Positions 29,092 through 62,607 of a stretch of DNA of 64,000 nt are shown one piece after another. Below the pieces are notes generated by a model, which was not told the DNA's origin, did no database searches, and saw only the letters and a list, made by a program, of their open reading frames with translations. Origin of the DNA: an uncultured cyanobacterium (lineage in GTDB: Bacteria; Cyanobacteriota; Cyanobacteriia; Cyanobacteriales; Cyanobacteriaceae); the NCBI GenBank assembly GCA_963710605.1, contig CAVQBA010000006.1:416001-480000 (forward strand), in the 5' to 3' direction. Positions within the stretch are counted from its first letter, which is position 1, and the number at the start of each line of letters is the position of its first letter. The position numbers and the translations under genes are program-made.

Positions 29092-29323
29092 TTCTTACTT
29101 CGTCAATTAATTTTATTAATTTTTTGATGTAAATAGGTTTTATCGGTTTACGAGCTGGAATGGTTAAAATAGTTGTAAAATAAGGATGCTTAAAAGTTAC
29201 ATGAGAACCACTCGCTAATCTTTTTTCAAATCCATAATGATTAGCAATACGATCGACATCATCTATTTTCCAATTTTGAGGATTATTCCTCATTTTAACA
29301 AGTAATTTTTCTATTTTACCCAT
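29084..29323 (-). CDS. hicA: HicA family mRNA interferase toxin
   Basis: GSHVTFKHP...LTIPARKPIKPIYIK; overlaps hicB. Confidence 0.88.
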   Translation of the reverse strand: MGKIEKLLVKMRNNPQNWKIDDVDRIANHYGFEKRLASGSHVTFKHPYFTTILTIPARKPIKPIYIKKLIKLIDEVRNE

Positions 29324-34551: not shown

Positions 34552-34642
34552 GAATTTTATCGTCAAACAATAATCAATTTATTTATACTTCGTTATTTAT
34601 TATGATTGACTTTTAGTCTGAAAGAACGTTTAAATCTTAATT

Positions 34643-34833: not shown

Positions 34834-35514
34834 TTATTTTGCATTAATAACCTCATTTAATTTAGACACTAATTGATAAACTGTAGTTGAAGGGTTGATG
34901 TTATGTCTTTGAATCAACTCTGATAATTCCAAATCTTCTGATTTACTATTGTGTTGTGAATAACTTAACCATAATTTTCTGGCATTTTTGATCGCTTGAC
35001 TTTCTTTATCCTTTAATTGTTTATAAATTTGCTCGGCATTTTTTTCATACTTTGTACCTAATCGCTGAGTTAGTTTCTGATTAATTTTGCTTCTGTGAGT
35101 GTCACTAGTATAATACTCGTAATGAAGTAGTAACCATAATTCAAAAGCATCATTAGAAATAGCTAAATTACATTGATCATTAAACGCTAATTCTATAGCA
35201 GTGTTAAAATTTTGCTGATTATAATTTTCTGATTTTGCATCTCGATCGAAAACACACCACACTTCATCATCTCCATAATCACCATCTTTTGCTTTGAATT
35301 TAATAGCTTCTCTTACAACAGTTATACCTACTGCTTTAGCATTTTCTATTTTAAGAGAAATTGTTGCCGTTTTTGTTTCTCTTCCTAAGACTTGAAACTC
35401 TCTAAAATATTTTTCTTCTGTATGCCCTTCACAAACAATCAAAAACCTTTTTCTAATTTTTCTGGTATTAGATTTTCTTCTAGAATAAGGAGGTTGAGAT
35501 TTCTTTCTAGCCAT
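34834..35514 (-). CDS. rloB: RloB family protein
   Basis: FLIVCEG.TE..YF, VWCVFDRD, AISN.AFELWLLLHY, NPSTTVYQLV. Confidence 0.88.
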   Translation of the reverse strand: MARKKSQPPYSRRKSNTRKIRKRFLIVCEGHTEEKYFREFQVLGRETKTATISLKIENAKAVGITVVREAIKFKAKDGDYGDDEVWCVFDRDAKSENYNQQNFNTAIELAFNDQCNLAISNDAFELWLLLHYEYYTSDTHRSKINQKLTQRLGTKYEKNAEQIYKQLKDKESQAIKNARKLWLSYSQHNSKSEDLELSELIQRHNINPSTTVYQLVSKLNEVINAK

Positions 35515-35520
35515 ATTCAA

Positions 35521-41424: not shown

Positions 41425-43320
41425 CTACTTTTTATCTTTGTTAGAAATAGGATAAGAAGGGGGTACGCCTTTAATACTAATAATTGAATCAATCACTTCT
41501 TTAACTATTGGTGCGGCTACTGTCGAACCGTAAGTATTTCCGCCCTTTGGTTCGTCTATGACAGAAACAATTACATAACGGGGTTTGTCGGTAGGAAAAA
41601 TAGAGACAAAACTGGTTATTTTTGCTGTCGCTTGATATCTACCTTTACCATCATGTTTTTGTGCTGTACCTGTTTTACCACCTATATGATAACCATCAGT
41701 TATTGCGGCTTTACCTGAACCGTTAACTACTACAGATTGCATCATTTTGACCACACTTAATGCTGATTCTTCTTTAAAAACTCTTTTACTTTCAAATTCA
41801 GGAATTTTCTCTAACTCTCCTTGAGCATTAACTAAACCTTTGACGATATGAGGAGTAACTAAAATACCACCATTAGCTAAAGCCGCATGAAGTTGAACTA
41901 GTTTTAGTGGTGTCATCGAAAACCCTTGCCCGAATGCAGATACCGCAGGTTCGATCTCTCTGGCTGTAAAAATAGATTTTGATTTAAGATATCCTGTAGC
42001 TTCAAAAGGCATATCTACTCCCATTAATTGATCTAAACCTAATTCTTTGAGTCTTTGGTAATATTTTTGTCAATCGATTTTACGCATTGTGTGAACCATG
42101 CCTGTGTTACTAGAAACTTCTAAAACTTTGGTAATACTTACCCAACCTAACCCTCGCTTAGAAGCATTAGAAATTGGCCAACCATCAACCACAAGAGAAG
42201 CCGCATCTAAAATTTGGCTATTGGGATTGATTACACCTTCATCTAAGGCAATTGCTACATTAATTGGTTTAAAAGTTGATCCTGGCTCATAACTATCTGT
42301 TACTGCCCAATTATTAAATAAAGATAAATCGTAGCGAAAATATTCATTAGGGTTATAAGTTGGTTCACAGGCTAAGGCTATTATCTCACCGTTATTCACA
42401 TCCATTACGATCGTCACACCTCTTTTGGCGTTAAACTTTTGTAATTGGCTTTTTAAACTATCTCTAACGGCTCTTTGTAAACGTAAATCTAAAGTAAGTT
42501 GTAATTGTAAATCATCTAATTTAACGATACCTTCTGGTAAAGAAGAGGGAATAAATTCACCTTGTCCGTTTTGACGCACCCTTACCATTGCCTTTACTTC
42601 AGGTTGATCTAAATTTCTTTCTATCCATTCTCTTTGACTATATTCAACACCTGCTTGACCAATATGTTCGGTATTTACATACCCTAAGATATCAGCAAAA
42701 AGCTCTTCTTGAGGATAAAAACGAGTATAACGACGTTCAAAATCAACTCCATCTAATTTTAAGCGTCTAATTCTTTGAGCATGTTCTTCACTAATATTTT
42801 TACCTAACAAAACTCCTGTGTTTTTACTATTAATTAGGTTAAGAATTTGTTGTTTATCTCGGTCAACTAAAATTTGAGCTAATTTTTCAGCAATCAAATC
42901 ATTCCAATTTTGACCCGTTGCAGATACTTCTTCTTTTAAATCTTCATCTTTTTGGATGATAACTGGATGTAGATAGATATTATAAACTAGTTTGTCTAAA
43001 CCAATCACATTACCATTCGCATCAACAATCGAACGACGAGGAATATAAGGGCGAAAATTCGATGTTTGTTGTTGATTTGCCCGTTTTGGCAGATTAATCG
43101 TATTACCTTCGGCGGTAGTTACTTCTTGTTGTATTTGTAATTTATATAATCGCCATCCCAATCCACTGACACCTGTAATTAAAACTAACCACACAATGAC
43201 AAGTCTTAGCCAAGAATCAAAATCAATGTTTAAATTCATTGATTTTAACAAGCTACTATTTTTGATTGTTACTAAAATATTGTTTTGACGGGAATTAGAT
43301 TTATAAACTTTCATCGGCAA
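41425..43320 (-). CDS. ftsI: Class B penicillin-binding protein FtsI (in-frame TGA at 42070-42072 probably an error)
   Basis: RRSIVD.NG, R.YPQ, YEPGSTFK (SxxK), SSN (SxN), KTGTAQK; the two track ORFs are in the same frame. Confidence 0.88.
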
Positions 43321-47282: not shown

Positions 47283-47750
47283 ATGGATAGAGAAAAACTT
47301 TTGAAAAAACGAAATAAATTAAAAGCTAAAATCTATACTTCTGTCCGTATTGGCTTAATTAGGGAACTCATTAATTATCTCGACAGCAAGAAAGTTGAGT
47401 ACAACCTACATTTAGAATGCGATCGTGTTTTCAAAAAATATCCCACTAATTTTTCAGGTTTAAACTGGGGAATTATTCCTAATTCCCAACTGATTCATTA
47501 CCACACTATAGAGCAAAGAAATCAAATTATATCTAACGCCCTAACTGAGTATTTGAATAAGTCAGATCGGGTTTTTGTAGTTTGGAGCAATGGATTAACA
47601 CCTATATTAGAGTTATCTGTAAAGCAACTTATGGATAATATTGAACCTATTGTTAATGAAGATTTCGATATGTGGATTTTGCAGTTAGAAAAAGGGTTTT
47701 GTCTGGAGCATTATCACGAAGGATATGTAGCTTGGACAATTAACTCATAA
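47283..47750 (+). CDS. Hypothetical protein resembling a CdiI-type immunity family
   Basis: YP...LNW...VFVVWSN...P.LE...DMWIL....CLEHYHEG pattern. Confidence 0.5.
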   Translation: MDREKLLKKRNKLKAKIYTSVRIGLIRELINYLDSKKVEYNLHLECDRVFKKYPTNFSGLNWGIIPNSQLIHYHTIEQRNQIISNALTEYLNKSDRVFVVWSNGLTPILELSVKQLMDNIEPIVNEDFDMWILQLEKGFCLEHYHEGYVAWTINS

Positions 47751-50514: not shown

Positions 50515-52273
50515 CTAGAAAGTGAAGGTTAACCTTAATGTACCAATTACCACATCAGGATTTCGAGAAGATTGATTAGGTGCAGTTAACCAGATAACAC
50601 CAGGAGTTAAAGAAATATTATTTGTCATTTTGTGAATGTAAAATGCCTCAATATGCCAAGGAATAGAATTTCCGGCAATTAAATCTGTATAATCATCTCC
50701 TAAATCTGACCCAAACCAATTACCTCCAGTACGATAAACTTCGGGAACTTCTGCTTTGCTTGCGTAGGGTGATGCTCCCACTACAATACCTCCTAAATTA
50801 CCTTCTTTAAACAAGTCTGGAAATGCAAAAGCAATTCCATAGGTTAAGATATCGGCTTTACTACCTTGATATTCCACTAGATTAAATGCGTCTGTACCAC
50901 CTGAAGTATTAACCTGATTATAGGCAAACCAACCATTTACAGCAAACTTAGGACTTAATTCCCATAAAGCTTGGAGACCATAGGAATTAACATTTACTTG
51001 TTGAGTCGGAACTACAGGGAAATTTGCTAAAGTCGTTCCCTGATCGTTGAAAAAAATCGGTAAACTGTTAAAAGGAGTTTCTACAGAATGGTAGCTATGG
51101 CTATAGGTTAAACCAAAGGAAAAATTATCGCTCGGTTGAACGGTTAATTGTGCTAAGGCTGAGTATCTACCATTAAATAACCCTCCTGCAAAGGGATTAC
51201 TTGCGTCTGGACTGCTAGGATTATTAGCATAAGTAGCTAAGTAACCCGCACTGAGGCTAATACTGTCGCTAAAATTATAGGTGACACCGATACCCGAATC
51301 CTATATAGTTATAAATTGCACTACGTTGTCCAAAAACCGAAAGAGAGCCTGTACCTCCATTATCGTCATCCCAACTACTAAAGGTGGTGGGTACATAGTC
51401 GTGGTGTTCTCCTCCTGTACCCATGATTACAACTTCAGCTTTATCCCCGATCGGAAATTGATAGCTTAATTCAGTTATCCCGACTGAATTATCACCAGGT
51501 AAATCGGCAATATCGTTAAAAGTTTGTTGAGCTTCAGAAGAAAAAGCTAAACCTCCTTGATACCCCCGTAAAGGGTTAGGTTCCATATTGAAATCCCCCG
51601 GACGATTAGGATGGGGAAAATTACCACTAGTCAGACGAATTTTGAGTCGATCTTGACCTGTAAAACTGGTGATTAAATCCAAACGAACTCGGTTAGCAAA
51701 AACAGTTTGTTGACTAGGATTGTCTATATCTATATTTCCCGTAGGACTAAAAATAGCAGGAAAAGTTGAGGTTGAATCATCTCCTGCTAAAACATCTGTT
51801 ATGGCAAAAATAACTTCCCCTTGTAATTTGGTGGTGGTGGAAAATTGATTATCTTCTAAGAACGCTACTCTGCCTTCTAGGTTATCAACTCTTGCACCTA
51901 AAGCGGCTAATTCTGCTTCAAATTCAGTAACTAAACGCTGTAGTGTGGCTACATCTTCTCTTAATACTGACTCGCTACCTGCGATTAAACGCTCCATTTG
52001 TTGCATACAAGCATTTAAACCTGCGGCAAATTCGTAACGGCTTAAAGCACGATTGCCACGGAAGGTACAATCTGGGTAACCGACAATACAACCGTAACGT
52101 TCCACTAAACTTGTTAAAGCTTCGTAAGCCCAATCTGTAGGGGATACATCTCTTAACTGGGATACTGAGTTAACTTGGTTGAGTTTATTCTCTTCTAACT
52201 CAATAGCGATCGCTCCTTCTATATTCCAAAGCAACGATAATCCTAAGATTACCTTAATACTAGGCTTCCACAT
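50515..52273 (-). CDS. Cyanobacterial SLH + OprB-type ('iron uptake') porin; one apparent +1 error at ~51297
   Basis: VNSVSQLRDVSPTDWAYEAL, RYEFAAGLNAC, QFSTTTKLQGEVIF, C-terminal LRLTFTF; AGGAG RBS before ATG 52273. Confidence 0.9.
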
Positions 52274-52395
52274 AAATCTCCTCACTAAATAATTATGATA
52301 ATGATTCTCATTATTTTTAATAGTAATATAATAATGGTAATCATTATCATTTTTTTAAGAGAACCAATGATTGAATTTTCTCAATGGTATAGAGG
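52206..52395. repeat. Direct repeat copy 1 (~190 bp; porin 5' end, Fur-box intergenic, lanM 5' end)
   Basis: Aligns to 53209-53398 at constant offset 1003 with 6 mismatches; begins at GCGATCGC. Confidence 0.93.
52297..52348. promoter_or_regulatory. Two Fur-box-like sites
   Basis: GATAATGATTCTCATTATT (16/19) and AATAATGGTAATCATTATC (17/19) vs GATAATGATAATCATTATC. Confidence 0.75.
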
Positions 52396-52480
52396 TCTTA
52401 ACTTACAGGAACGACAAATCTTACTTGAACAAAACGAGTTTGATGAAGCTGAGAAGGTAATCTTTTTTGATAAAGGGTGA
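52367..52480 (+). pseudogene. Truncated 5' remnant of a lanM homologue
   Basis: MIEFSQWYRGLNLQERQILLEQ vs intact LanM MIEFSQWYRGLNLRERITLLEK; ends at GTGATCGC. Confidence 0.75.
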
Positions 52481-52483
52481 TCG

Positions 52484-52906
52484 CTATCTCGTCCAATCTT
52501 CTACACGAGCAATACCAATACTGACAAAATCATTAACATTAACCGTAATTATGGTCAATTTATTAGCATTGGCAATAGCGGCAATACGACAGTCTTGTGT
52601 ACCAATTCTTTTTATTTTGGCAGGAAGTAACTGATAAATGCTTTCAGCTTCTGGGGTATAAGACAAAATTTGAAAGTGATGTAGTGCAACAAATAAGTCT
52701 TCAAAATATTGGTAAGCATAGGTTACAGATGATTTTCTTTTGACTTTTTGCACAGAGGCTAAAGCACCTTGTAATATCTCTTCAACGGTAATAATGCTAA
52801 TGAAAATTTGTTCAGGTGGTTGACTCAAAATTTTAGCTGTTAGTTGAGGATAGTAACGTCTCTCATCCAAGAAATTACTAACAACACTAGTATCCAGAAG
52901 GTACAT
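52484..52906 (-). CDS. vapC: PIN-domain VapC family toxin
   Basis: YLLDTSVVS, ISIITVEE, IGTQDCRIAAIA, ITVNVNDF. Confidence 0.9.
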   Translation of the reverse strand: MYLLDTSVVSNFLDERRYYPQLTAKILSQPPEQIFISIITVEEILQGALASVQKVKRKSSVTYAYQYFEDLFVALHHFQILSYTPEAESIYQLLPAKIKRIGTQDCRIAAIANANKLTIITVNVNDFVSIGIARVEDWTR

Positions 52907-53097
52907 TAATCTTGTTTGTCCGATTTAAGATCTAAAAGCTTTTTTGTTTCTTCTCTATCTATTTTGCGACAATGTTTAATTTCTGACTGCGTAAAATGCC
53001 AAAATTCTCCTCCAAACTTACCAGCGATATTAATTAAAGGGTTATCAATTACTTGTTTTTTTTCAGACTGTTTGTGAGAAATTTTATTTTCCATCAT
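52906..53097 (-). CDS. Putative antitoxin of the PIN toxin
   Basis: 63-aa ORF, stop overlaps the vapC start (TAATG). Confidence 0.65.
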   Translation of the reverse strand: MMENKISHKQSEKKQVIDNPLINIAGKFGGEFWHFTQSEIKHCRKIDREETKKLLDLKSDKQD

Positions 53098-53208
53098 TTT
53101 GCCCGTAACTGTTGCTTGTAATGTTCATTATAGTTTAAACAGTTGGTCAGTACGATCGAATTTTAGAAGAGTTTGGAGTACGATCGCCTTTTTGTCGAGG
53201 TGAGAGGT

Positions 53209-53398
53209 GCGATCGCTCCTTCTACATTCCAAAGCAACGATAATCCTAAGATTACCTTAATGCTAGGCTTCCACATAAATCTCCTCACTAAATAATTATG
53301 ATTATTATTCTCATTATTTTTAATAGTAATATAATAATGGTAATCATTATCATTTTTTTTGGAGAACCAATGATTGAATTTTCTCAATGGTATAGAGG
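53209..53398. repeat. Direct repeat copy 2 (porin 5' remnant, Fur boxes, start of intact lanM)
   Basis: See copy 1; begins at GCGATCGC 53209. Confidence 0.93.
53333..53351. promoter_or_regulatory. Fur-box-like site upstream of lanM
   Basis: AATAATGGTAATCATTATC, 17/19 to consensus, 18 bp before the ATG at 53370. Confidence 0.72.
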
Positions 53399-56300
53399 AC
53401 TTAATTTACGTGAAAGAATAACTTTACTAGAAAAAATCAAGACCACAGATTTCGACTTAGCCGATCGTCATCTCCAGCGTTGGCGATCGCAAAAACCTTT
53501 GACAGATGAGAATTATTATGCACAGAAATTGTCCCAAGAGGGATTAACAGAGAATGAATTTATGAGGATATTGGGGGAATCAGATGATTCTTTAGCCCAA
53601 CGTTGTGCTAGTCCAGATTGGTTAGATAAGTTAATTCAAGATTTTGAGGTTGAAGAGATTGCTAAGGTGAAGATTGCCCCTGTAGAAACTTTAAGCGACA
53701 ATCGATTAAATTTAGGGTTTTTGCATTTAGTGAAACCATTATTAAATCAAGCCCTAGTAAGTTTAGAGGTAGGAATCGAAAAATTAGGAAAAAATACTCC
53801 CTTCGCCCCAGAGAAAATTAAGGGAATTTTATCGGCTAAAATTCCAGAGCAATTATTGGGAATAGTTAGTCAAACAATGGTTTTAGAGTTAAATGTTGCC
53901 AGATTAGAAGGAAAATTATTGGGAGAAACTACGAGGGAACGTTTAATCGATTTTCTGCACAAATTAGAGCAAAAACAATCTTCTTTAGAGATACTTCAAG
54001 AATATCCAGTCTTAGCACGACAAATAGTGATTTATCTAGAACAGTGGGTAGAAGTAAGTTTAGAATTTTTAGAGCGTCTTTGTCAGGATTGGGAACTAAT
54101 TTGCGATCGCTTTAGTGGTGATTCTCCCCTTGGTATGTTAGTGAAAATACGATCGGGTGCAGGAGATTCCCATAAAAAAGGGCGATCGGTTTTTATTTTA
54201 GAATTTAGTTCTGGATTAAAACTAGTTTACAAACCCAAATCTTTAGGGATAGACGAGCATTTACAAGAGTTACTAATCTGGTTAAACCAACAAGGATTAG
54301 AGTTGCCATTTGCGATCTTAAAGATACTTAATCGAGGTGAGTATGGCTGGGTAGAATTTGTCGAAGCCAAAAGTTGTACCTGTATCGAGGAAGTTGAGCG
54401 ATTTTATCAACGAATGGGCAGTTATTTGGCTTTGATGACAGCTTTAGAAGCAACGGATTTTCACCTGGAGAATATTATCGCCCGTGGGGAAACTCCTGTT
54501 TTGATTGATTTAGAAACCCTATTTCGTCCCGAACGTCTCGATCGTAATTCCCCAGAATCTCGTTTAATAGCGAATCAAAAAATAGGTCAATCGGTGATGG
54601 CAGTAGGATTATTACCACAGAGAATAGCGGTCAAAGATGGTTCAGGGGGTTTTGATTCTAGCGGATTAGGTGCAGTGGGAGGTCAAGTTCTACCCACTCG
54701 TACTGCTGAATTAACAGGGATGGGAACGGATCGAATGCAAGTAGAACGAAAGTTTGCGACTTTATTAGAGAGTCAAAATCTTCCTTATTTAGGAGAAAAA
54801 CCTGTGGAAGTCTGGACTTATCGAGAGAATATTGAAGCAGGATTTATTGAAACTTATCGCTTATTACTAAACCATCGAGATTTATTCCTAAAACTTTGGC
54901 TACCTAAATTTGCTAATGACGAAATTAGGGTAGTTTTGCGAGATACAAGGTTATATGGATTATTATTACAAGAGAGTTTTCACCCCGATGTTTTAAGAAA
55001 TGCCCTCAATCGCGATCGCCTTTTCGATCGTCTTTGGATTGATGTTCCTAATCACCCTAGTTTAGCAAATGTGATTCGATTGGAACAAAAAGCTCTTTGG
55101 CAAGGAGATGTACCTTTCTTTTCTACTCAGGTAAATAGTCGAGATATTTGTGGAGAAGGGGAAAAACTCAGTAATTTTTTTGATAAATCAGGCTTAGAAC
55201 GAGTAAAAAATCGATTTAAACGTTTAAGTGAAAAGGATTTAGAAGAACAACTCTGGTTTATCAGAACATCGTTAACCAGTTTAGCCATGTCGGTGTCAAC
55301 TAAACCTAAAAAAATAACAGATAAGGTGCAAGAATCAGAAAAAATTGAGAATTGGGAACTACTTCAAGCTCGATTATTAGCAACATCTGAGAAGATTGCC
55401 TCTCGTTTGGAATCGTTAGCAATTCGAGCCGAAAATCAAGCAAGTTGGATTGGTTTAACTTCAGCAGGAGAAAAACATTGGACAGTCAAACCCTTAGCTT
55501 GGGATTTATTTGGCGGACTTCCCGGAATTGCTCTATTTTTTGCCTATTTAGGAGAAGTCACCCAAAAACAAAAGTACACCAAATTAGCGAAAGATACCTT
55601 AGAAACTATCTTAATTCAGACCGATTTCGATCGAGATTTAATCACTTCTGTGGGGGGTTTTGATGGCTGGGGAGGAATTATTTATACTCTTACCCATTTA
55701 GGAAATTTGTGGCAACAACCAGAATTAGGCGATTTGCTTGCAGCAGCGCTTCGCTCCCGTGCTTTAGCATTGGTCAAAAAATTATCTCCTCTAATTGCTA
55801 AAGATGAACAATTAGATATTGTAGCTGGTTGTAGTGGCTGTATTTTAGCTCTAATTAATCTCTACGATTGGGTTCAAGATGAAAATATTAAAACTGTGGC
55901 AATTCAATGTGGCGATCGCTTAATTGAAAAAGCCATTACCATGAAAAAAGGAATCGGATGGGGGACAATTGCCAATCAAAAACCTCTGAGTGGTTTTTCT
56001 CACGGAGTTGCGGGTATTTCTCTAGCTTTATTAAAATTAGCCACTTTTACAGGAGATGAACGTTATCAAAAAATAGCTCTAGAAGCATGGGAATACGAAC
56101 GTAGTCTTTTTTCTGTTACCGAAAAAAATTGGCACAATAGCGAACAAGACCAAGAAAACTTGGCAGTTGCTTGGAGTTATGGAGCAACAGGAATTGGTTT
56201 AGCCCGTTTAGGTAGTATTTCTCAGGTAAAAACAACGCAAGTTAATTTAGAAATTAATATAGCGATGGAAACTACCATAGCGTCGGGTTTTGGTAATAAT

Positions 56301-56582
56301 CATTCCCTCTGTAATGGAGATTTAGGTAGTTTAGAACTACTCCTACAAGCAATCAGCACCAAATCTCAACCCGAACTTACCCATACTTATTACCAAAAAA
56401 TTAACCAAGTACTTAATAGCATCGAACAACAAGGTTGTTATTGTGGAGTTCCCTTGGGGGTGGAAACGTTAGGATTAATGACGGGTTTAGCTGGTATTGG
56501 TTACCAACTAATTCGTTTAGCATTCGCCGATCGTATTCCTTCTTTATTATTACTTGAATCTCCCCTCAATCGCAAAATATGA
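53370..56582 (+). CDS. lanM: Class II lanthipeptide synthetase LanM (DUF4135 dehydratase + LanC-like domain)
   Basis: GDSH, KLVYKPKS, GWVEFV, TDFHLENII, IDLETLF, R..LRDT..Y; GFSHG, GLMTGLAGIGY; GGAG RBS at 53361. Confidence 0.93.
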   Translation: MIEFSQWYRGLNLRERITLLEKIKTTDFDLADRHLQRWRSQKPLTDENYYAQKLSQEGLTENEFMRILGESDDSLAQRCASPDWLDKLIQDFEVEEIAKVKIAPVETLSDNRLNLGFLHLVKPLLNQALVSLEVGIEKLGKNTPFAPEKIKGILSAKIPEQLLGIVSQTMVLELNVARLEGKLLGETTRERLIDFLHKLEQKQSSLEILQEYPVLARQIVIYLEQWVEVSLEFLERLCQDWELICDRFSGDSPLGMLVKIRSGAGDSHKKGRSVFILEFSSGLKLVYKPKSLGIDEHLQELLIWLNQQGLELPFAILKILNRGEYGWVEFVEAKSCTCIEEVERFYQRMGSYLALMTALEATDFHLENIIARGETPVLIDLETLFRPERLDRNSPESRLIANQKIGQSVMAVGLLPQRIAVKDGSGGFDSSGLGAVGGQVLPTRTAELTGMGTDRMQVERKFATLLESQNLPYLGEKPVEVWTYRENIEAGFIETYRLLLNHRDLFLKLWLPKFANDEIRVVLRDTRLYGLLLQESFHPDVLRNALNRDRLFDRLWIDVPNHPSLANVIRLEQKALWQGDVPFFSTQVNSRDICGEGEKLSNFFDKSGLERVKNRFKRLSEKDLEEQLWFIRTSLTSLAMSVSTKPKKITDKVQESEKIENWELLQARLLATSEKIASRLESLAIRAENQASWIGLTSAGEKHWTVKPLAWDLFGGLPGIALFFAYLGEVTQKQKYTKLAKDTLETILIQTDFDRDLITSVGGFDGWGGIIYTLTHLGNLWQQPELGDLLAAALRSRALALVKKLSPLIAKDEQLDIVAGCSGCILALINLYDWVQDENIKTVAIQCGDRLIEKAITMKKGIGWGTIANQKPLSGFSHGVAGISLALLKLATFTGDERYQKIALEAWEYERSLFSVTEKNWHNSEQDQENLAVAWSYGATGIGLARLGSISQVKTTQVNLEINIAMETTIASGFGNNHSLCNGDLGSLELLLQAISTKSQPELTHTYYQKINQVLNSIEQQGCYCGVPLGVETLGLMTGLAGIGYQLIRLAFADRIPSLLLLESPLNRKI
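55729..55754. repeat. 18-bp in-frame insertion within a HIP1 site (SDR-like)
   Basis: GCGA-TTTGCTTGCAGCAGCGCT-TCGC. Confidence 0.7.
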
Positions 56583-58725
56583 AATATCAGGTTATCCTTC
56601 AACATAATGAAGAAGATTGCGGTGCCGCTTGTTTAGCCACTTGTGCCAAATATTACGGTCAAATTTTTTCCCTCCATCGAGTTCGTGAGGTAGCAGGTAC
56701 AGGAGCTTTAGGCACTACTTTATTAAATCTTAAACAGGGGGCAAAAACTCTTTTATTTGATGCTAAGGGGGTGAAAGTTCCCCTCGAATTAATCGATCGA
56801 CAAATAATTCCTTTACCCGGTATTATTCACTGGCAAGGTATTCATTGGGTCGTTTTATACGGCAAAAAAGGTCGCAAATATGTGGTGGCAGATCCAGCCG
56901 TAGGCTTGCGTTATCTATCCAAACCAGAATTATTAAAAGGTTGGACTAATGGAGCGATGTTATTACTTGAACCTCGCCCTGAATTTTCTCACCAACTTGA
57001 CGATCGTCATAAAATTAATAATTATCAACGTTTTTTAGCTTATTTCTCGCATAAAAAGCGTCTTTTAGGGCAAGTTTTTTTGCTGAACTTGATGATTGGG
57101 ATTTTAGCTTTAACTTCCCCCTTTTTCTTACAAATTCTCACCGATGAAGTATTAGTTACCCAAGATATAACACTGCTTAATGGGGTAATTATTGCTGTTT
57201 TTATCTCTAATTTATTTAGAAGTAGTCTTAGGTTTATCCAATCCTATTTAGTAACCCATTTTTCCCAAGGTTTAGAACTTAGTTTGGTTTTAGAATTTTG
57301 CCGTTCAATTTTATTTCTGCCTTTAGCCTATTATGAATCCCATCGTAGCGGGGAAGTAGCCAGTCGTTTGCGAGATATCCAAGCAGTTAATCAACTTGTA
57401 TCTCAAGCTTTAATCCTATTACCTAGTCAATTATTTATTGCTTTAATTTCTTTAATTTTAATTTTTATATACAATCATAATCTCCTTTTTATTACCTTAA
57501 TTATTGCCATAATTATGTGTGCTTCTACTTTAATTTTTTGGAATCGAATTAAGAAGAAAACACAAAAGCTTTTAGCCTTGACAGCAGAAAATCAAGGAAT
57601 TTTAGTGGAAACTTTTAAGGGTGCAATTGTGATGAAAACTAAAAATGCTACTTCTCAATTTTTAGATGAATTTCAAGCTAGATTTGGTCGGCAAGCGAAA
57701 ATTAATTTTCAACGATCGCAAATTGCTATCTTTAATTCCACTTTTTCTGGTTTTATTTTATGGACTGGAGAAGCGATTCTACTTTGGTTTGGCAGTCAAC
57801 TGGTTTTTCAAGGCAATTTAACCATCGGTCAATTAGTTGCCTGTAATATCATGAGTAAAAACGGCTTGAGTTTTATTATTTTAATTATCGATTTTGTGAA
57901 CCAGTTAGTTTTTGTCCAATCAGCCTTAGAACGTTTGGGTGATGTCATTGATGCTACCCCCGAAGTTCAACCCAATCAAATTAAACCTAGGGTTAAATTA
58001 TTAGCCAATAGCGATATCTTAGTTGCCATGATTTAACTTTTAATCATCCTGGTAGAGTGGAACTACTCCATAATTTTAATCTTACTCTCCCTGGAGGGAA
58101 AGCGATCGCTTTGATTGGTGAATCGGGTTGTGGTAAATCAACATTAGCTAAATTGATCGCACGGTTATATTTTCCTCAAACTGGACAAATCCGCATCGGT
58201 GATTATAACCTCAATGATTTAGCCCTCGATTCTATTCGAGAACAAATTGTTTTAATTCCCCAAGAAACTCACTTTTGGAGTCGATCGATTATTGACAATC
58301 TCAGCTTAGGTAACGAGGCGATCGATTTTGCCACAATTGTTCGAGCTTGTAAAATTGCTCAAGCAGATGAATTTATTAGTAAACTTCCTAATCAATATCA
58401 AACTATATTAGGAGAATTTGGTGCCAACCTTTCTGGTGGACAAAGACAACGACTTGCCCTCGCCCTTGGTATTGTTACTAATCCGCCAATTTTGATCCTT
58501 GATGAATCTACTGCTAATCTCGATCCAGTTTGTGAAGCTGAAGTTATCGATCGTCTTCTTGATTATCGTCAAGGTAAAACTACAATTTTGATTAGTCATC
58601 GCCCTCAAGTCATTACCCGTGCTGATTGGATCGTCTTTTTGGAAGTGGGCAAAGTAAAACGACAAGGAACACCACAGCAACTATTTTCTCAATCGGGTTC
58701 TCATCTTAATTTTTTGACTCCTTAA
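56579..58725 (+). CDS. lanT: C39-peptidase-containing ABC exporter (LanT/PCAT); frameshift at ~58020
   Basis: QHNEEDCGAAC, IHW..IHWVV, ADP; TM domain; GESGCGKS, LSGGQRQR, ILDES. Confidence 0.9.
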
Positions 58726-58760
58726 AAAAACTGCAAAAATAATTCCTTATTTCAAGACTC

Positions 58761-58789
58761 GTAGGGACGTAGCATTGCTACGTCCCTAC
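58761..58789. repeat. Perfect GTAG-type REP palindrome
   Basis: GTAGGGACGTAGC-att-GCTACGTCCCTAC, flanked by a repeated AAAAAACTGCAAAAAT. Confidence 0.8.
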
Positions 58790-58801
58790 TTAAAAAACTG
58801 C

Positions 58802-58837
58802 AAAAATGATAATCATTCTCAAAAAATACTGTATAAT
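58802..58837 (+). promoter_or_regulatory. Fur-box-like site plus -10 box for lanA
   Basis: AAAAATGATAATCATTCTC (16/19) followed by TATAAT at 58832. Confidence 0.65.
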
Positions 58838-58885
58838 ATTTGCAGGACTGAAAAGTCTCCATAACTAAAAAATAACGAGGTAAAA

Positions 58886-59125
58886 ATGTCTAATATTGAT
58901 ATTATTCGTGCTTGGAAAGATGAAGATTACCGTAACAGTTTAAGTCAAGAACAATTGAATCTCTTGCCAGAAAATCCTGCGGGGATGATTGAATTAAACG
59001 ATGAAGATATGTCTTCACTTTCAGGAGGTTGTACTACCTGTACTGGTGGAACTGGATTTACCCATACCTGTAATTACTCTTGCAAAAGAGGAACTCTTGA
59101 TAGTGACGAAATGACTATTATGTAA
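58886..59125 (+). CDS. lanA: Lanthipeptide precursor, mersacidin/lichenicidin-type leader, GG cleavage site
   Basis: DIIRAWKDEDYRNSLS.EQ...LPENPAGMIEL...SGG, core CTTCTGGTGFTHTCNYSCKRGTLDSDEMTIM; GAGG RBS. Confidence 0.93.
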   Translation: MSNIDIIRAWKDEDYRNSLSQEQLNLLPENPAGMIELNDEDMSSLSGGCTTCTGGTGFTHTCNYSCKRGTLDSDEMTIM

Positions 59126-59257
59126 AAAAAATTCACCATCAGGAAAGCAAGAAGATTTGTCCAGCTAATTACTTTCCCTAGATGAATTTCAGGAGACCTA
59201 GAATTTATTTCTGGGTCTTGCCCCTAGATATAATTATAGAGAAGTCTAGATTTATTA

Positions 59258-60670
59258 ATGATTAATTTCGATGAAAAAGCTCTTTTACCAACTATTTCTG
59301 AGGAAGAATTTTTACCCTCCATTAGTCTTTGGTTGAGTTTAGGAGGGCTGGTTTTAGCTACTACGATCGTTTCAGCTTTTATTTTAGCGGCTGTGACTAG
59401 ATATAAGGTTACAGTTAAAGCGATCGCTACAGTTCGTCCCGAAGGAGAAATACAAATTGTAGAATCCACTCAAGAAGGCACTGTTAAAACCATTGAGGTT
59501 AAAGAAAATCAATTTGTGCAAACGGGGGAAACAATAGCCCTTCTAGATAAGTCCCAATTGCAACTTAAAAAATTACAGTTACAGGGTTCTTTGGAGAAGT
59601 TAAATCAACAACAAAGCCAGATTAATCAACAAATTGTGGCTTTAGATCGTCAATTGATGGCAGAAACAGAGAAATATAATCGTATTGTCCTTTCTCTTGA
59701 AGCTCAATTAGCTGGTCAAAAACGTGAATATGACGATCGTCAATCTACCACGGAAAAGGATTTAGAAGAAGCCCAAGCTGATATCAGACGAACAGAAGCA
59801 GAATTAAAAATATCCTACGCCCGTTTAGCTGCTGCCAAAGCCGATTTAAAAGCCGAGCAAGAAAGATTGAAACGATATGCCCCCTTGACTGAAGAAGGAG
59901 CAATTTCCCAAGAGCAATTGATGGAAATCAAGCTCGGTGTGGAACAAAAAGAACAAAATGTTCTGATCCAAATTCAAGAAATTGAAACAGGCAAACAAAC
60001 ACTTCAAATTGCCCAAGGAAAAGGGGAAAAAGCTAAAATTGCTTTAAATCCTAGTAACTCTGAACTAAAAATAACACAACAGGCTATTGCTAGAGAAAAG
60101 GCTGCCCTTATGGCAATACAAGCTGATTTCAAAAGGGAAAAGAATTTATCGATCGGACAAAATATTGAACTACAAAAACAAAGCGATCGTGAAAAATTGG
60201 AATTAAAACAAGTTAAAAAGCAGATTGAGCAAGGGATTATTACCGCTCCGGTTAGTGGTACAGTTCTTAAACTTTTATTACGTAACCCAAGTCAAAGGGT
60301 ACAAGCGGGTACAGAAATTGCTCAAATTTCACCCCAGAATGCTCCTTTAGCTATTAATGCTCAAATTTCGGCGGCTGATATTCATAATCTCGAAATAGGT
60401 CAAACAGCACAAATTAGAATTTCAGCTTGTCCTTATCCTGATTATGGTACTCTTTCAGGGGTGGTTAAAGAAATATCTACAGATACTTTTATCAGTAATA
60501 ACCAATCCTTTTATAAAGCTATTATTGCACCACAAAATAATGTTTTTGGTAATACCGACTCGCCTTGCATTTTACAAGCTGGAATGGAGGGGGATGTTGC
60601 TATTGTGACCAAAGAAGAGACTTTTTTAGTATTTATTTTGAGGAAAGCACGATTGGTTACAGATTTTTAA
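59258..60670 (+). CDS. hlyD: HlyD family secretion adaptor
   Basis: TM anchor, VRPEGE.QIVE, long coiled coil, ITAPVSG, ACPYPDYGTL.G. Confidence 0.92.
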   Translation: MINFDEKALLPTISEEEFLPSISLWLSLGGLVLATTIVSAFILAAVTRYKVTVKAIATVRPEGEIQIVESTQEGTVKTIEVKENQFVQTGETIALLDKSQLQLKKLQLQGSLEKLNQQQSQINQQIVALDRQLMAETEKYNRIVLSLEAQLAGQKREYDDRQSTTEKDLEEAQADIRRTEAELKISYARLAAAKADLKAEQERLKRYAPLTEEGAISQEQLMEIKLGVEQKEQNVLIQIQEIETGKQTLQIAQGKGEKAKIALNPSNSELKITQQAIAREKAALMAIQADFKREKNLSIGQNIELQKQSDREKLELKQVKKQIEQGIITAPVSGTVLKLLLRNPSQRVQAGTEIAQISPQNAPLAINAQISAADIHNLEIGQTAQIRISACPYPDYGTLSGVVKEISTDTFISNNQSFYKAIIAPQNNVFGNTDSPCILQAGMEGDVAIVTKEETFLVFILRKARLVTDF

Positions 60671-60783: not shown

Positions 60784-62607
60784 CTATTTTCGGTTGGTTT
60801 GTTGTGGTTGTCTGTGGAGAGTTTTTACTTGTTGTGGAGGGTTGTTGTTAGTTGAAGAATCAGCACTGACAATAGCACGATTCTTTTGTTTTTTTGATCT
60901 ACTTACCAAACTCCATATATCGATAAGTATCTCTAAATATTCTTGGTGTTTTTGCTCAACTGTTGGTAGATTCCATTCGTTTTCATTAATTATTTTAATC
61001 GTGATGGGGAAAATTGTCGGATTAGTGTCTTTGAAATATTTTGTTTTTTTCTTTTCAAAATCGTAATTTTGTGCCGAAGAATTCTTTTTTCTGGAAAGTA
61101 ATGCTAAATTACCAACTCGATGTACCCATTTTGCTCTTGTTTTATCATCCCAATTTTTGCACCAATCACTATTAGGCTTAGGATTTTGTGGTAACACGTG
61201 TTCGATCGTTACCATTTTACTATCAAAACTAGGACTTAATCCACCTTCAGCTAAAGCCGAATCTAATCTCTTTAAGACATAAAGACGACTACGAGTTTGC
61301 TCATACAAATTACTATCAAGAATTTTAATTATTTTCTTTTTTTCTGGTGTTGATAACAGTTGTTTGGTTTTAGCTATCGCTTCTTCTATTCCTTGATCAA
61401 TCGCATTTAAAATTTGAGCATAACGTTTTCCTCTTTCATTAATATCTGCTCGTAAAATCATCAATCCTGCGGCGAGTCTTTCTAGTTGCTGAAAAAAAGT
61501 TTTAATTTGTTGAGAGTGATTGTAAGATTTTGCTAAAAAATAAATAGCAGGAGGTAACCAATCAGAATTATCTATCTGATTTAACCAGCCAAAAAGTCGA
61601 TTTATTTCTTGTTTATTTTGATTATTATTACAATGAAATCTTTGATCTCTAATAATTTCAAACATCTTAGAACAAGGTTTTAAAACTCGATCGATAAACC
61701 GAATTGGATCATTTTGAGGTTTAATTTTGTGGCGAAATTCTGTTAGTAAATTTTCTTTAGGTCTTTCCCTTAATTTGATACGATGAATATGAGAAAATAA
61801 AGTTTCAAAATCTTTTCTACCTATATCACTTTCTTCTCCTTCCCAAATATCGGTATATTTTTTCTTATCTGCTTCAACTTGAATATTACCGATAATTTCT
61901 GACTTGAGAATATCATTTAATTGTAAATTTAAACCACGAGTATTAATAGTTGAAAAAATACGATAAGCTGTATCAAAATCAGAAGTTGAAACAACAACTA
62001 AATAACATTTATTAAAGATGTTTTTAAATAGATGTAAAATCCATGATTCTAAAGCCGTATTCTCAGGACAACGATCGATTAATTCTTCTTTAAAAAAACG
62101 AGCATTATTTTGGAGTAAAATTTGACTATCTGTAGTTAATCCTGTGTCTATTTCTTCTTTTTCTAGAAGTTGATTAATGCCACCGCCACTACGTATTTTT
62201 TCGCCGAAAAATCGATCGTCTTGAGGGCGTAATTTTAAACCAGATAAGTTTTTTTCATTGAAATCTTCATCTTCAAGACAAGCACTTATTTTTTGATAAA
62301 TTTTATTTTCCCTTGGTACTAAGTAACGAAACACAGATAGTAAAAGTGTTAAAGTGGTTAAACGTTGTTGACCATCAATTACTTCTGCGTAGGGTTTGCC
62401 ATCCTCTTTAATTAAAATAATACTGCCAAAAAAGTAGTCTGGACTATCTTCATCAGTATAAGGAAAAGCATCTAAAAGATCATCAATTAATTCGGAGGCT
62501 TGATCTTTTGTCCAAGCATAAGGGCGTTGATAAGAGGGTATTTCAAATTGATAATTAGTTAAGTTGAAAATTTGATTAAGTTGTTTTTGAGATGCTTGAA
62601 TCGCCAT
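60784..62607 (-). CDS. DUF262 + DUF1524 (GmrSD-like) modification-dependent nuclease
   Basis: IPSYQRPYAW, VIDGQQRLTT, F..INTRG, TIEHVLPQ, VGNLALL...NS...N. Confidence 0.9.
   Translation of the reverse strand: MAIQASQKQLNQIFNLTNYQFEIPSYQRPYAWTKDQASELIDDLLDAFPYTDEDSPDYFFGSIILIKEDGKPYAEVIDGQQRLTTLTLLLSVFRYLVPRENKIYQKISACLEDEDFNEKNLSGLKLRPQDDRFFGEKIRSGGGINQLLEKEEIDTGLTTDSQILLQNNARFFKEELIDRCPENTALESWILHLFKNIFNKCYLVVVSTSDFDTAYRIFSTINTRGLNLQLNDILKSEIIGNIQVEADKKKYTDIWEGEESDIGRKDFETLFSHIHRIKLRERPKENLLTEFRHKIKPQNDPIRFIDRVLKPCSKMFEIIRDQRFHCNNNQNKQEINRLFGWLNQIDNSDWLPPAIYFLAKSYNHSQQIKTFFQQLERLAAGLMILRADINERGKRYAQILNAIDQGIEEAIAKTKQLLSTPEKKKIIKILDSNLYEQTRSRLYVLKRLDSALAEGGLSPSFDSKMVTIEHVLPQNPKPNSDWCKNWDDKTRAKWVHRVGNLALLSRKKNSSAQNYDFEKKKTKYFKDTNPTIFPITIKIINENEWNLPTVEQKHQEYLEILIDIWSLVSRSKKQKNRAIVSADSSTNNNPPQQVKTLHRQPQQTNRK

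What the first reader, a model, noticed from the sequence alone, without database searches (positions are those of the whole stretch)
50515..60670. Putative iron (Fur)-regulated lanthipeptide cluster coupled to an iron-uptake porin: candidate RiPP metallophore or iron-competition system
Seen: lanM-lanT-lanA-hlyD is divergent from an SLH/OprB porin. 19-bp sites matching the Fur consensus at 16-17/19 lie before the porin (52297, 52330), lanM (53333) and separately lanA (58802). The duplicated segment shows that porin and lanM originally shared a <100-bp divergent promoter. Established: Fur represses iron-acquisition genes, and PCAT+HlyD export GG-leader peptides. Inference: an exported Cys/His-rich RiPP made under metal limitation, either for metal capture or as a weapon. 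I know of no described system of this form.
Basis: partly seen in the sequence, partly recalled or inferred. Interest (0 to 1): 0.85.

Follow-up and report, generated by a model that had tools for sequence, protein, structure and literature searches.

The report
Zinc-starvation lanthipeptide and porin module
A cyanobacterial gene cluster for a small modified peptide and a companion outer-membrane pore carries the DNA switches of the zinc-starvation regulator, not the iron one, which hints at a peptide-based way of coping with zinc shortage.

Summary
A class II lanthipeptide cluster (lanM, lanT, lanA, hlyD) lies divergent from an SLH/OprB porin.

The metal is wrong. In this genome the same motif marks znuA/znuCB, a COG0523 gene and a hemB paralogue, which are the classic cyanobacterial Zur (zinc) regulon. 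It does not mark furA or the only TonB-dependent receptor. A matrix trained only on those zinc sites ranks the four cluster sites as the best other hits in 3.9 Mb.

The layout of porin, boxes and lan genes recurs across many cyanobacteria. It is often embedded among znuABC, zur, COG0523 and hemB2. Among 102 LanA relatives, boxes accompany Cys/His cores (31 of 36) and almost never other cores (1 of 61). The linked porins form one clade.

The LanM of this lineage has lost two of the three zinc ligands of its cyclase domain.

Best reading: a Zur-controlled zinc-starvation module (about 0.85). Its peptide may serve zinc acquisition (about 0.4), or it may be an antimicrobial. I found no published description. 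The frameshifts in the porin and lanT are probably assembly errors.

The parts
50515..52273 (-). SLH/OprB porin of the lan-linked clade. It is read in two frames, with a +1 base near 51297. The likely start is the ATG at 52273, behind a GGAG site.
   Evidence: Pfam SLH + OprB and NCBIfam NF033921: N part 315 bits, C part 75 bits. Frames. Clade of 9 lan-linked porins with SH-aLRT 100.
52296..52315 (.). Box A, a Zur-type operator in the porin/lanM divergent promoter (TGATAATGATTCTCA core).
   Evidence: PWM score 20.7 bits, among the top 8 hits in the genome.
52330..52349 (.). Box B, a Zur-type operator (TGGTAATCATTATCA core).
52206..52438 (.). Copy 1 of the 233-nt duplication: porin 5' end, promoter and a decaying lanM 5' remnant.
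52484..53097 (-). Inserted vapBC-like pair: PIN/VapC 52484-52906, and a small upstream ORF 52906-53097 with no family hit.
   Evidence: Pfam PIN E 1e-11 and NCBIfam VapC models below cut-off.
53209..53441 (.). Copy 2 of the duplication: porin 5' remnant, weakened box A' (53300-53318), intact box B' (53333-53351) and the lanM start.
53370..56582 (+). lanM, a class II lanthipeptide synthetase. Its cyclase domain has WSYG and LCNG in place of WC.G and LCHG, so two of three zinc ligands are replaced.
   Evidence: The CylM ligands Cys875, Cys911 and His912 come from PMC4550811.
56579..58725 (+). lanT, with a C39 peptidase domain, ABC membrane domain and ATPase. It is read in two frames (+2, an extra AT near 58014-58015).
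58761..58790 (+). Perfect 13-bp-stem hairpin between lanT and the lanA promoter, flanked by a direct repeat.
   Evidence: Fold -27 kcal/mol, z -6.2. No T-run, so not scored as a terminator.
58802..58821 (.). Box C, a Zur-type operator 9 nt upstream of the -10-like TGTATAAT (58830-58837) of lanA.
   Evidence: PWM 24.5 bits, rank 2 in the genome. It is the only invariant block upstream of lanA in 10 genomes.
58886..59125 (+). lanA precursor. Leader 58886-59029 ends in GG. The core is CTTCTGGTGFTHTCNYSCKRGTLDSDEMTIM.
   Evidence: TIGR03898 72 bits. Relatives.
59258..60670 (+). hlyD-type membrane fusion protein of the exporter.
   Evidence: Pfam HlyD_3. TIGR01843 170 bits, below its cut-off.

Best explanation
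The cluster belongs to the zinc-starvation (Zur) regulon, not the iron regulon. With enough zinc, Zur sits on box A/B between the porin and lanM and on box C at the lanA promoter, and it shuts all three transcription units. When zinc runs short they are released.

LanM then dehydrates Thr/Ser of LanA. Its cyclase domain has lost two of the three zinc ligands, so it works without the usual catalytic zinc, or it leaves some Cys free. LanT cuts the leader after GG and, with HlyD and a TolC-like protein encoded elsewhere, exports the core.

The core always carries an N-terminal C-x-x-C and a His. I infer that it serves zinc acquisition by binding Zn(II) outside the cell or in the periplasm. I also infer that the dedicated, co-regulated porin gives zinc, or the loaded peptide, a way in towards ZnuABC.

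Shown in silico: the operator identity, the conservation, the linkage to zinc genes and the ligand loss. Inferred: Zur binding, zinc response, ring pattern, metal binding and the porin's cargo.

My odds are about 0.85 that it is Zur-controlled and about 0.4 that its role is zinc acquisition. The confidence given is for the whole statement.
For: 1. Operator identity. Genome-wide there are 28 sites with up to 3 mismatches to the 19-mer. Of the 6 with up to 2 mismatches, 3 lie in the cluster, 2 lie before znuA and COG0523, and 1 lies inside an ORF. A matrix trained only on the 4 zinc-gene sites puts the 4 cluster sites at ranks 2, 6, 7 and 8. Only these 8 positions in 3.93 Mb score 18 bits or more.

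2. Match to known Zur sites. The motif equals the Anabaena Zur sites TGATAATCATTATCA and relatives (S3 Table of PMC10957091). znuABC, COG0523, hemB2, folE2 and thrS2 are Zur targets in Anabaena and in PCC 7002.

3. Other genomes. In G123, G169 and G190 the exact core AATGATNATCATT occurs 8, 7 and 5 times, against 0, 0 and 1 for the reversed control. Outside the lan cluster it flanks znuABC, COG0523, folE, a thrS-like gene, hemB and a Fur-family gene.

4. Synteny. The porin is divergent from lanM-lanT-lanA-hlyD in 8 of 8 loci that reach that far, with boxes at both promoters. 10 loci of other architecture have no porin and only one weak hit.

5. Box versus core type. Of 102 LanA relatives in 79 loci, a box of 15 bits or more lies within 250 nt upstream in 20 of 24 'CxxC..H' cores and 11 of 12 His-rich cores. 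It does so in 1 of 61 other cores and 2 of 5 unclassifiable ones.

6. Zinc neighbourhood. The cluster is flanked by znuA/znuC, a Fur-family gene, hemB, znuABC or COG0523 in G136, G169 and G190.

7. Dedicated porin. The lan-linked porins form one clade.

8. LanM ligand loss. WS.G and C(N/S)G replace the canonical motifs in 18 distinct loci plus the window. None of 58 LanMs of other clusters shows this. The group is one clade with SH-aLRT 99.

9. Export. A TolC-like gene is present in the genome.
Against: There are no expression or binding data.

The Nostocales 'CxxC..H' clusters and the His-rich class keep a canonical zinc site in LanM. Ligand loss is therefore not required for the system.

Many cores have a single His. 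If all Cys become thioethers, few good zinc ligands remain.

From general knowledge, OprB-type porins pass small solutes. A peptide of 1-3 kDa would be large for them.

The His-rich class has boxes but no porin within 7 kb.

FurA may cross-bind such sites. In Anabaena znuA is reported as co-regulated by FurA (passage of PMC4005646).

In this assembly the porin, lanT and the zur-like gene each carry a frameshift. If these are real, the module is decaying here.

The matrix rests on 4 training sites, and those were themselves found with the Fur consensus.
Confidence: 0.4

Rival explanations
1. Zur-controlled antimicrobial. The peptide is an ordinary lanthipeptide weapon or allelochemical released under zinc starvation to suppress or lyse competitors. 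The porin is just an extra zinc-permeable pore that shares the switch.
For: The leader belongs to the mersacidin/lichenicidin lantibiotic family, and the cluster has an export machine. From general knowledge, metal-limitation control of bacteriocins is well known for iron (colicins, microcins, pyocins). The evidence for Zur control fits this reading equally well.
Against: No immunity genes (lanI, lanFEG) lie between the porin and hlyD. I did not see the lipid II-binding motif of mersacidin-type peptides in the core (the motif is recalled, not tested). Cores range from 11 to 32 residues yet keep only C-x-x-C plus His. The boxes track His/Cys cores and not lanthipeptides in general. A LanM with a broken zinc site would, judging by the LctM ligand mutants, cyclise poorly (statement seen in PMC11356792).
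Confidence: 0.3
2. Zur-controlled peptide with another role, such as a starvation signal, a surface or morphogenetic peptide, or a periplasmic zinc buffer. The link to zinc would be regulatory only. The zinc-free LanM would be simple zinc sparing, like hemB2 or folE2.
For: Zur regulons typically hold zinc-independent substitutes for zinc enzymes. The ligand-less LanM clade is old and its cyclase domain is still well conserved.
Against: It does not explain why a dedicated porin clade travels with the cluster. It does not explain why only His/Cys cores are under the boxes.
Confidence: 0.15
3. One reading: iron (FurA) control of a RiPP siderophore-like or iron-competition system coupled to an iron-uptake porin.
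For: The boxes match the E. coli Fur consensus at 16-17 of 19. The porin family is named 'iron uptake porin'. FurA is reported to bind some Zur targets in Anabaena.
Against: No box scoring 9 bits or more lies upstream of furA, the two other Fur paralogues, or the promoter of the only TonB-dependent receptor. No stand-alone flavodoxin or FeoB was found. The top sites are all at zinc genes. There is no match to the Anabaena FurA consensus. The neighbours in other genomes are zinc genes.
Confidence: 0.05
4. The boxes are chance AT-rich matches, and the cluster in this genome is a decaying pseudogene array.
For: The genome is 33% G+C. The porin and lanT are frameshifted.
Against: 0.09 matches are expected against 7 found. 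The boxes are conserved in genomes of 42-50% G+C at a fixed distance from lanA. Housekeeping genes are split too: PGI and a PBP transpeptidase in the window, and ALAD and an aminotransferase elsewhere. Completeness is 84.9% for a 7-contig assembly, which points to assembly indels.
Confidence: 0.02

Closest known systems
Cyanobacterial class II lanthipeptide clusters (ProcM/prochlorosin type and other LanM clusters with GG leaders, PCAT and HlyD)
   Same: LanM with DUF4135 and LanC-like domains, a GG-leader precursor, a C39-ABC exporter and HlyD. 111 of 401 genomes of the same order have a LanM match at E <= 1e-50.
   Different: Here the cluster has Zur-type operators at two promoters and a dedicated divergent porin. 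The cores keep C-x-x-C plus His. The LanM lacks two zinc ligands. In the comparison clusters, 47 LanMs have Cys-Cys-His and 3 have Cys-Cys-Cys (the latter recalled as ProcM-like), with no boxes and no porin.
Cyanobacterial Zur regulon (Anabaena PCC 7120, Synechococcus PCC 7002), including the exoprotein ZepA
   Same: The same 7-1-7 operator. The same companions: znuABC, COG0523, hemB2, folE2, thrS2 and the FAD oxidoreductase. It also includes an extracellular component for zinc uptake (ZepA; abstract and passages of PMC10957091).
   Different: No RiPP and no OprB-type porin is mentioned in the passages I read. 'porin', 'lanthi' and 'OprB' occur 0 times in the main text of PMC10957091.
Zur-controlled zincophores (staphylopine/pseudopaline Cnt systems, coelibactin). 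Recalled; coelibactin was seen only in a search listing.
   Same: Made under zinc limitation, with a dedicated exporter and a dedicated outer-membrane entry.
   Different: Those are opine or non-ribosomal small molecules taken up by TonB-dependent receptors or ABC importers. This one would be ribosomal, with a passive porin.
RiPP metallophores such as methanobactin (copper). Recalled, not tested.
   Same: A ribosomal peptide as an extracellular metal binder.
   Different: Different chemistry (oxazolone/thioamide), a different metal and different enzymes. I know of no lanthipeptide member.
Lanthipeptide synthetases without the zinc site: class III LanKC cyclase domains, the LanM-like protein of Pseudanabaena galeata CCNP1313 and clostridial CA_C0082
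   Same: The cyclase domain lacks canonical zinc ligands (passages of PMC10301443 and PMC11356792; title and abstract of PMC10604976 in the listing).
   Different: The Pseudanabaena substrate has no Cys, and CA_C0082 has no substrate gene. Here the substrates keep 2-4 conserved Cys, one ligand Cys remains, and the genes sit under zinc-starvation control.

Membership tests
Class II (LanM) lanthipeptide gene cluster | Bifunctional LanM with an N-terminal dehydratase and a C-terminal LanC-like domain | tested here: met
   DUF4135 E 2e-126, LANC_like E 7e-68, TIGR03897 964 bits against a cut-off of 304.
Class II (LanM) lanthipeptide gene cluster | Cys-Cys-His zinc site in the cyclase domain (CylM Cys875, Cys911, His912) | tested here: not met
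   WSYG replaces WC.G and LCNG replaces LCHG. Only the middle Cys remains. The ligands are taken from PMC4550811.
Class II (LanM) lanthipeptide gene cluster | Precursor with a GG-type leader and a Cys plus Ser/Thr core | tested here: met
   TIGR03898 72 bits against a cut-off of 23.5. The core has 4 Cys and 10 Ser/Thr.
Class II (LanM) lanthipeptide gene cluster | Thioether rings in the product | not testable with these tools
   Needs mass spectrometry and thiol alkylation of the LanM-treated peptide.
Cyanobacterial Zur regulon | Operator matching the 7-1-7 Zur-binding site | tested here: met
   4 sites with up to 1 mismatch to TGATAATNATTATCA, against 0.07 expected.
Cyanobacterial Zur regulon | Same motif at canonical zinc genes of the same genome, and a zur gene present | tested here: met
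   znuA/znuCB, COG0523 and hemB-II. A Zur-like gene lies at C7:257108-257480 beside znuA and is frameshifted.
Cyanobacterial Zur regulon | Operator overlaps the promoter | tested here: inconclusive
   Promoter-like hexamers overlap boxes A and B but are not more frequent than in shuffles, 6 against 6.0. A conserved -10-like element lies 9-10 nt after box C in 10 genomes. No transcription start site is mapped.
Cyanobacterial Zur regulon | Zur binding and zinc-dependent expression | not testable with these tools
   No RNA run was listed.
Fur (iron) regulon | Same motif at iron-acquisition genes of the genome, and a match to the cyanobacterial FurA consensus | tested here: not met
   None lies before furA or the promoter of the single TonB-dependent receptor. 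There are 0 matches with up to 3 mismatches to AAATAAATTCTCAATAAAT in the window.
Metallophore (zincophore) system | Metal-limitation control plus a dedicated exporter | tested here: met
   Zur boxes. LanT and HlyD. This is met in silico only.
Metallophore (zincophore) system | Energised outer-membrane receptor or binding protein for the loaded chelator | tested here: not met
   The linked outer-membrane protein is an OprB-type porin, not a TonB-dependent receptor.
Metallophore (zincophore) system | Product binds the metal tightly | not testable with these tools
   Only the conserved C-x-x-C and His are seen.
SomB/OprB 'iron uptake porin' NF033921 | SLH domain plus OprB barrel | tested here: met
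   N part 315 bits against a cut-off of 100, C part 75 bits, split by a frameshift.

The most novel reading that the evidence does not exclude
This is the first ribosomal, lanthipeptide-derived zincophore system. Zur releases a small exported peptide whose conserved N-terminal C-x-x-C and His capture Zn(II). The peptide is made by a LanM lineage that has given up its own catalytic zinc, so Cys thiols may stay free. It is paired with a dedicated porin clade for re-entry. The system is widespread in cyanobacteria in at least four core types.
Probability: 0.3. Interest if true: 0.9.

Novelty: new variant of a known kind. Interest (0 to 1): 0.8.

Why it matters
Lanthipeptides of cyanobacteria are very numerous, and their natural roles are largely unknown. 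This work picks out a conserved subset, defined by its core sequence, that sits under the zinc-starvation switch. That subset has its own porin and, in one lineage, a synthetase without the canonical zinc site.

This gives a directly testable physiological role for a RiPP family. It adds an outer-membrane porin and a secreted peptide to the cyanobacterial zinc response. It also offers a natural class II synthetase in which to ask how cyclisation works, or is avoided, without zinc.

There is a practical lesson too. [quoted passage not shown]

Tried and rejected
Reads. The look-up of sequencing runs listed one run of unknown kind holding 7% of the sampled words, and no RNA holder. Laying it gave scattered short contigs and no cover of either frameshift. 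It says nothing on the frameshifts or on expression.

Papers not held. Napolitano 2012 (PMC3347182) and Paul 2007 (PMC2517114) were unavailable. I saw their content only as cited by others. PMC12058595 gave no cyanobacterial Zur motif.

Rfam at gathering level finds only an rRNA operon at 10148-15041 and nothing in the cluster.

The promoter scan is no better than shuffles, and no intrinsic terminator was found.

G104. Three of its four exact motif cores lie in repeated FGE-sulfatase gene ends next to a reverse transcriptase and bAvd, not at zinc genes. That genome therefore gave no independent zinc link beyond a Cation_efflux gene beside the porin.

Porin signature. There are 31 clade-specific positions, among them one invariant His. 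I draw no functional conclusion from this.

Not attempted. I sent no complex prediction, because no stable protein pair is claimed. I made no fold of the porin or LanM.

Full report
WHAT IS THERE

ORF listing and family scans give the following from left to right.
- An SLH/OprB porin on the minus strand (52273..50515; NCBIfam NF033921).
- A vapBC-like pair (52484-53097, minus strand).
- lanM (53370-56582; TIGR03897, 964 bits).
- lanT, a C39-peptidase ABC exporter (56579-58725).
- lanA (58886-59125; TIGR03898 leader). Its core after GG is CTTCTGGTGFTHTCNYSCKRGTLDSDEMTIM.
- hlyD (59258-60670).

A GmrSD gene follows on the other strand. No lanI or lanFEG-like gene lies inside the cluster.

THE OBSERVATION

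The 19-mer Fur consensus with up to 3 mismatches hits only four places in the 64-kb window: 52297, 52330, 53333 and 58802. That is 7 strand matches against 0.09 expected, and 0 of 100 shuffles reach it. The 15-base 7-1-7 form with up to 1 mismatch hits the same four places, against 0.07 expected.

The 233-nt duplication is real: 52206-52438 and 53209-53441, 92% identical.
- Both copies begin at a GCGATCGC site.
- They share a nearly identical stretch of about 190 nt.
- Two of the six differences in that stretch weaken box A in the lanM-side copy.
- The lanM fragment of copy 1 decays quickly after that.

The duplication brackets the vapBC-like insertion.

WHICH METAL

I laid the genome (3.93 Mb, 33% G+C, 7 contigs) and scanned it.
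- 28 sites have up to 3 mismatches to the 19-mer, and 4 of them are in the cluster.
- 6 sites have up to 2 mismatches. Three are in the cluster. One lies directly upstream of znuA, divergent from znuC/znuB. One lies upstream of a COG0523 GTPase. One lies inside an ORF.
- Two more sites lie between a hemB (ALAD) paralogue and an FAD-NAD(P) oxidoreductase.

These are the experimentally known Zur targets of cyanobacteria.
- Anabaena: znuABC, COG0523 genes, hemB2, thrS2 and folE2 (table passage of PMC6103462).
- Synechococcus PCC 7002: znuABC plus hemB-II, folE-II, a GTPase and an FAD oxidoreductase (passages of PMC4628125).

A weight matrix trained only on the four zinc-gene sites ranks the cluster's four sites 2nd, 6th, 7th and 8th in the whole genome (24.5 and three times 20.7 bits). 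The next hit scores 17.35 and lies inside an ORF. Only these 8 positions reach 18 bits.

The sites also equal Zur-binding sites listed for Anabaena: TGATAATCATTATCA at alr3242, and two at all3515, whose fragment was shifted by Zur in EMSA (S3 Table and passages of PMC10957091). The Anabaena FurA consensus is AAATAAATTCTCAATAAAT (passage of PMC4005646). It has no match with up to 3 mismatches in the window.

The genome has four Fur-family matches. One is a Zur-like gene next to the znuA operon.

The iron side gives nothing.
- The best Fur match (C4:496170), the two other paralogues and the upstream region of the only TonB-dependent receptor carry no box. A single 10.7-bit hit lies inside an ORF.
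- No stand-alone flavodoxin or FeoB was found.

Cyanobacterial Zur sites simply resemble the classical Fur box.

RELATIVES

A search of 401 genomes of the same order found LanM matches in 111. I fetched about 20 kb around the 20 best.
- Ten have the order lanM-lanT-lanA-hlyD. One of these is cut off by a contig end before lanA.
- In 8 of the 8 that extend upstream of lanM, the porin is divergent from lanM. In the other two the contig ends at lanM.
- All 9 that include lanA have a box 16.7-24.7 bits strong upstream of it.
- All 9 that include the lanM upstream region have at least one box of 14.9-25.1 bits there.
- These genomes have 42-50% G+C.
- The 10 loci of other architecture have no porin. 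Together they have one hit of 14.9 bits.

An alignment of the lanA upstream regions of 10 genomes is otherwise poorly conserved (61% mean identity). It keeps only the box, a -10-like TAnnnT 9-10 nt after it, the ribosome-binding site and the ATG.

In three fairly complete genomes the exact core AATGATNATCATT occurs 8, 7 and 5 times, against 0, 0 and 1 for the reversed control. Outside the lan cluster it flanks:
- znuABC;
- COG0523;
- GTP cyclohydrolase I;
- a class II tRNA synthetase (thrS-like);
- hemB;
- a Fur-family gene;
- a recurring 'unknown, Metallophos_2, unknown' operon.

In a fourth genome (G104) the three other cores lie in repeated gene ends next to a retroelement and say nothing about zinc.

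The lan-porin cluster itself is flanked by zinc genes in three genomes.
- G136: znuA/znuC on one side and a CobW_C-like gene with Metallophos_2 on the other.
- G169: a Fur-family gene, hemB and znuABC.
- G190: COG0523 and hemB, with an FAD oxidoreductase inside the cluster.

WHICH PEPTIDES

The LanA leader family is large. 256 proteins match at E <= 1e-5, all annotated only as 'mersacidin/lichenicidin family'.

From an alignment of 28 members I fetched 79 loci from named genomes. Nearly all are cyanobacteria, with 2 Chloroflexi. I found 102 leader-bearing ORFs in them and grouped them by core sequence alone. I then counted boxes of 15 bits or more within 250 nt upstream.
- Cores starting C-x(1-2)-C with a His in the first 16 residues: 20 of 24.
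- Cores with two or more His (for example PTHTKTCKHCC): 11 of 12.
- All other cores: 1 of 61.
- Unclassifiable: 2 of 5.

Most boxes start 70-90 nt before the ATG. Boxes of 18 bits or more number 51 in the 35 loci of the first two groups (443 kb). They number 2 in the other 44 loci (576 kb).

Relatives are not independent, so these counts overstate the statistics. Even so, at least four distinct core types carry the boxes.

The porin was found in 17 of the 24 loci of the first group. In the other 7 the fetched DNA ends within 400 nt of the lanM start. It was found in 0 of 11 loci of the His-rich group. Those have the order hlyD-like, lanA, lanM, lanT, with boxes before lanA and before lanM. It was found in 1 of 44 other loci.

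A tree was built from 9 lan-linked porins, 29 paralogues from six genomes (only those for which loci were returned) and one further box-adjacent porin. It puts the 9 lan-linked porins in one clade with SH-aLRT 100. Its inner branching follows the peptide core types.

THE SYNTHETASE

In the window's LanM the motif WC.G reads WSYG, and LCHG reads LCNG.
- phmmer alignments place these on WCHG and LCHG of LicM2 and on the LCHG of CylM.
- A canonical LanM from a neighbouring clade aligns its WC and CH to CylM 874-875 and 911-912, and to the matching motifs of NisC.
- CylM binds its zinc through Cys875, Cys911 and His912 (passage of PMC4550811).

Two of the three ligands are therefore replaced.

Across all loci held, the Ser/Asn (once Ser/Ser) form occurs in 22 LanM genes. 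That is 18 distinct loci after removing the four fetched twice, plus the window. All of them are porin-linked clusters with boxes. In the remaining clusters there are 47 Cys/His and 3 Cys/Cys forms. There are 8 Cys/His forms in the His-rich class, and 11 Cys/His forms in loci of the first group. Those 11 are the nine Nostocales-type clusters plus one second LanM that was counted twice because its contig was fetched twice.

The ligand-less enzymes form one clade with SH-aLRT 99 and have deep internal branches. The loss is therefore old, and the domain has been kept since.

From the literature I saw three things.
- Zinc-ligand mutants of LctM keep dehydration but cyclise poorly. I saw this only as the title in reference lists and as a statement in PMC11356792.
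- Class III enzymes cyclise without zinc (PMC10301443 passage; PMC10604976 title and abstract in the listing).
- A Pseudanabaena LanM-like protein lacks all three ligands, and its substrate has no Cys.

Here the substrates keep their Cys. Either this lineage cyclises without the usual zinc, which would be zinc sparing like hemB2 and folE2, or it leaves thiols free. Free thiols would suit metal binding.

HOW IT LIKELY WORKS

Under zinc sufficiency Zur occupies boxes A and B and box C.
- Boxes A and B overlap promoter-like hexamers for both directions. The scan is no better than chance, so this is only compatible.
- Box C sits just upstream of the lanA -10-like element.

A strong hairpin after lanT (z -6.2) and the separate box argue that lanA-hlyD is its own unit.

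On zinc shortage all units fire. LanM modifies LanA. LanT removes the leader at GG; the C39 domain is a full-length match. LanT then exports the core with HlyD and a TolC-like protein encoded at C7:391999-393093.

Five observations make a role in zinc acquisition the reading I favour, at about 0.4:
- the conserved C-x-x-C plus His;
- the restriction of boxes to such cores;
- the zinc-gene neighbourhood;
- the private porin clade;
- the zinc-free synthetase.

An antimicrobial released under zinc stress is the main rival, at about 0.3. Weaknesses are listed under evidence against.

THE FRAMESHIFTS

Against the closest relative (G123; LanM 81% identical) the porin has one extra T near 51297 and lanT an extra AT near 58014.

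The same window has a split phosphoglucose isomerase and a split PBP transpeptidase. Elsewhere ALAD, an aminotransferase, two other porins and the zur-like gene are broken. Completeness is 84.9% for a 7-contig assembly.

I therefore take the breaks as probable assembly indels, but I could not check this with reads.

NOVELTY

Six full-text searches found nothing linking Zur or zinc limitation to a lanthipeptide, and no ribosomal zincophore. The term sets were:
- Zur + lanthipeptide + zinc;
- Zur + Anabaena + zinc + regulon;
- zincophore + ribosomally synthesized;
- lanthipeptide + cyanobacteria + zinc limitation;
- Zur + lantibiotic + cyanobacteri;
- lanthipeptide + metallophore.

For most hits I saw only listings. 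Supplements of papers that I did not open, and subscription journals, may hold more.

The parts are known kinds. The combination is new to me: Zur operators, a dedicated porin, Cys/His cores and a LanM without its zinc site.

Noticed in passing
window 52484-53097, with 52206-52438 / 53209-53441: A vapBC-like toxin-antitoxin pair sits exactly inside the porin/lanM divergent promoter. It is bracketed by a 233-nt direct duplication of the target whose left edges are GCGATCGC (HIP1-like) sites. A PIN gene also lies between lanM and lanT in G136 (L060:7483-7911).
   Followed up: partly
window 58722-58808: A perfect 13-bp-stem hairpin (58761-58790) is flanked by a direct repeat of about 18 nt (TTAAAAAA(A)CTGCAAAAAT). 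This looks like a small inserted element between lanT and the lanA operator.
   Followed up: partly
window 32953-34566 and 41425-43320; L001:14217-15228: Housekeeping genes are split into two ORFs each: phosphoglucose isomerase, a PBP transpeptidase and ALAD. The assembly seems to carry frequent small indels.
   Followed up: partly
L001:2502-4231; L103:4156-6565; L105:3966-6538; L060:13797-16010; L094:4048-5624: A recurring operon, 'unknown protein, Metallophos_2 phosphoesterase, unknown protein', stands behind a Zur-type box in several cyanobacteria. It is a candidate new member of the zinc regulon.
   Followed up: no
L076:13642-16242 (G190): A TfuA-YcaO pair lies directly after the lan-linked porin and before a Zur-type box and hemB. 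It may be a second RiPP-type enzyme pair in the zinc island.
   Followed up: no
L070:3884-4795 (G169); L076:4804-6021, L166, L168, L169: There are extra enzymes inside some clusters. One is a 2OG-Fe(II) oxygenase. The other is, behind its own box, an FAD-NAD(P) oxidoreductase of the family that is Zur-regulated in PCC 7002.
   Followed up: no
L107:4071 and 10839; L108:4045 (G104): The Zur-like 19-mer recurs inside the 3' ends of FGE-sulfatase-domain genes next to bAvd and a reverse transcriptase. These are probably diversity-generating retroelement repeats that mimic the motif by chance.
   Followed up: no
L094:1981-3888 (G169): A second OprB porin of a different clade ends just before an exact motif core, next to the Metallophos_2 operon. 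Zur-linked porins may be more general.
   Followed up: no
window 10148-15041; 28867-29323; 34834-36828; 47283-47750; 60784-62607: The window also holds an rRNA operon (16S, two tRNAs, 23S, 5S), a HicAB pair, an RloB/AAA_21 pair, a CdiI-like immunity protein and a GmrSD restriction enzyme.
   Followed up: no
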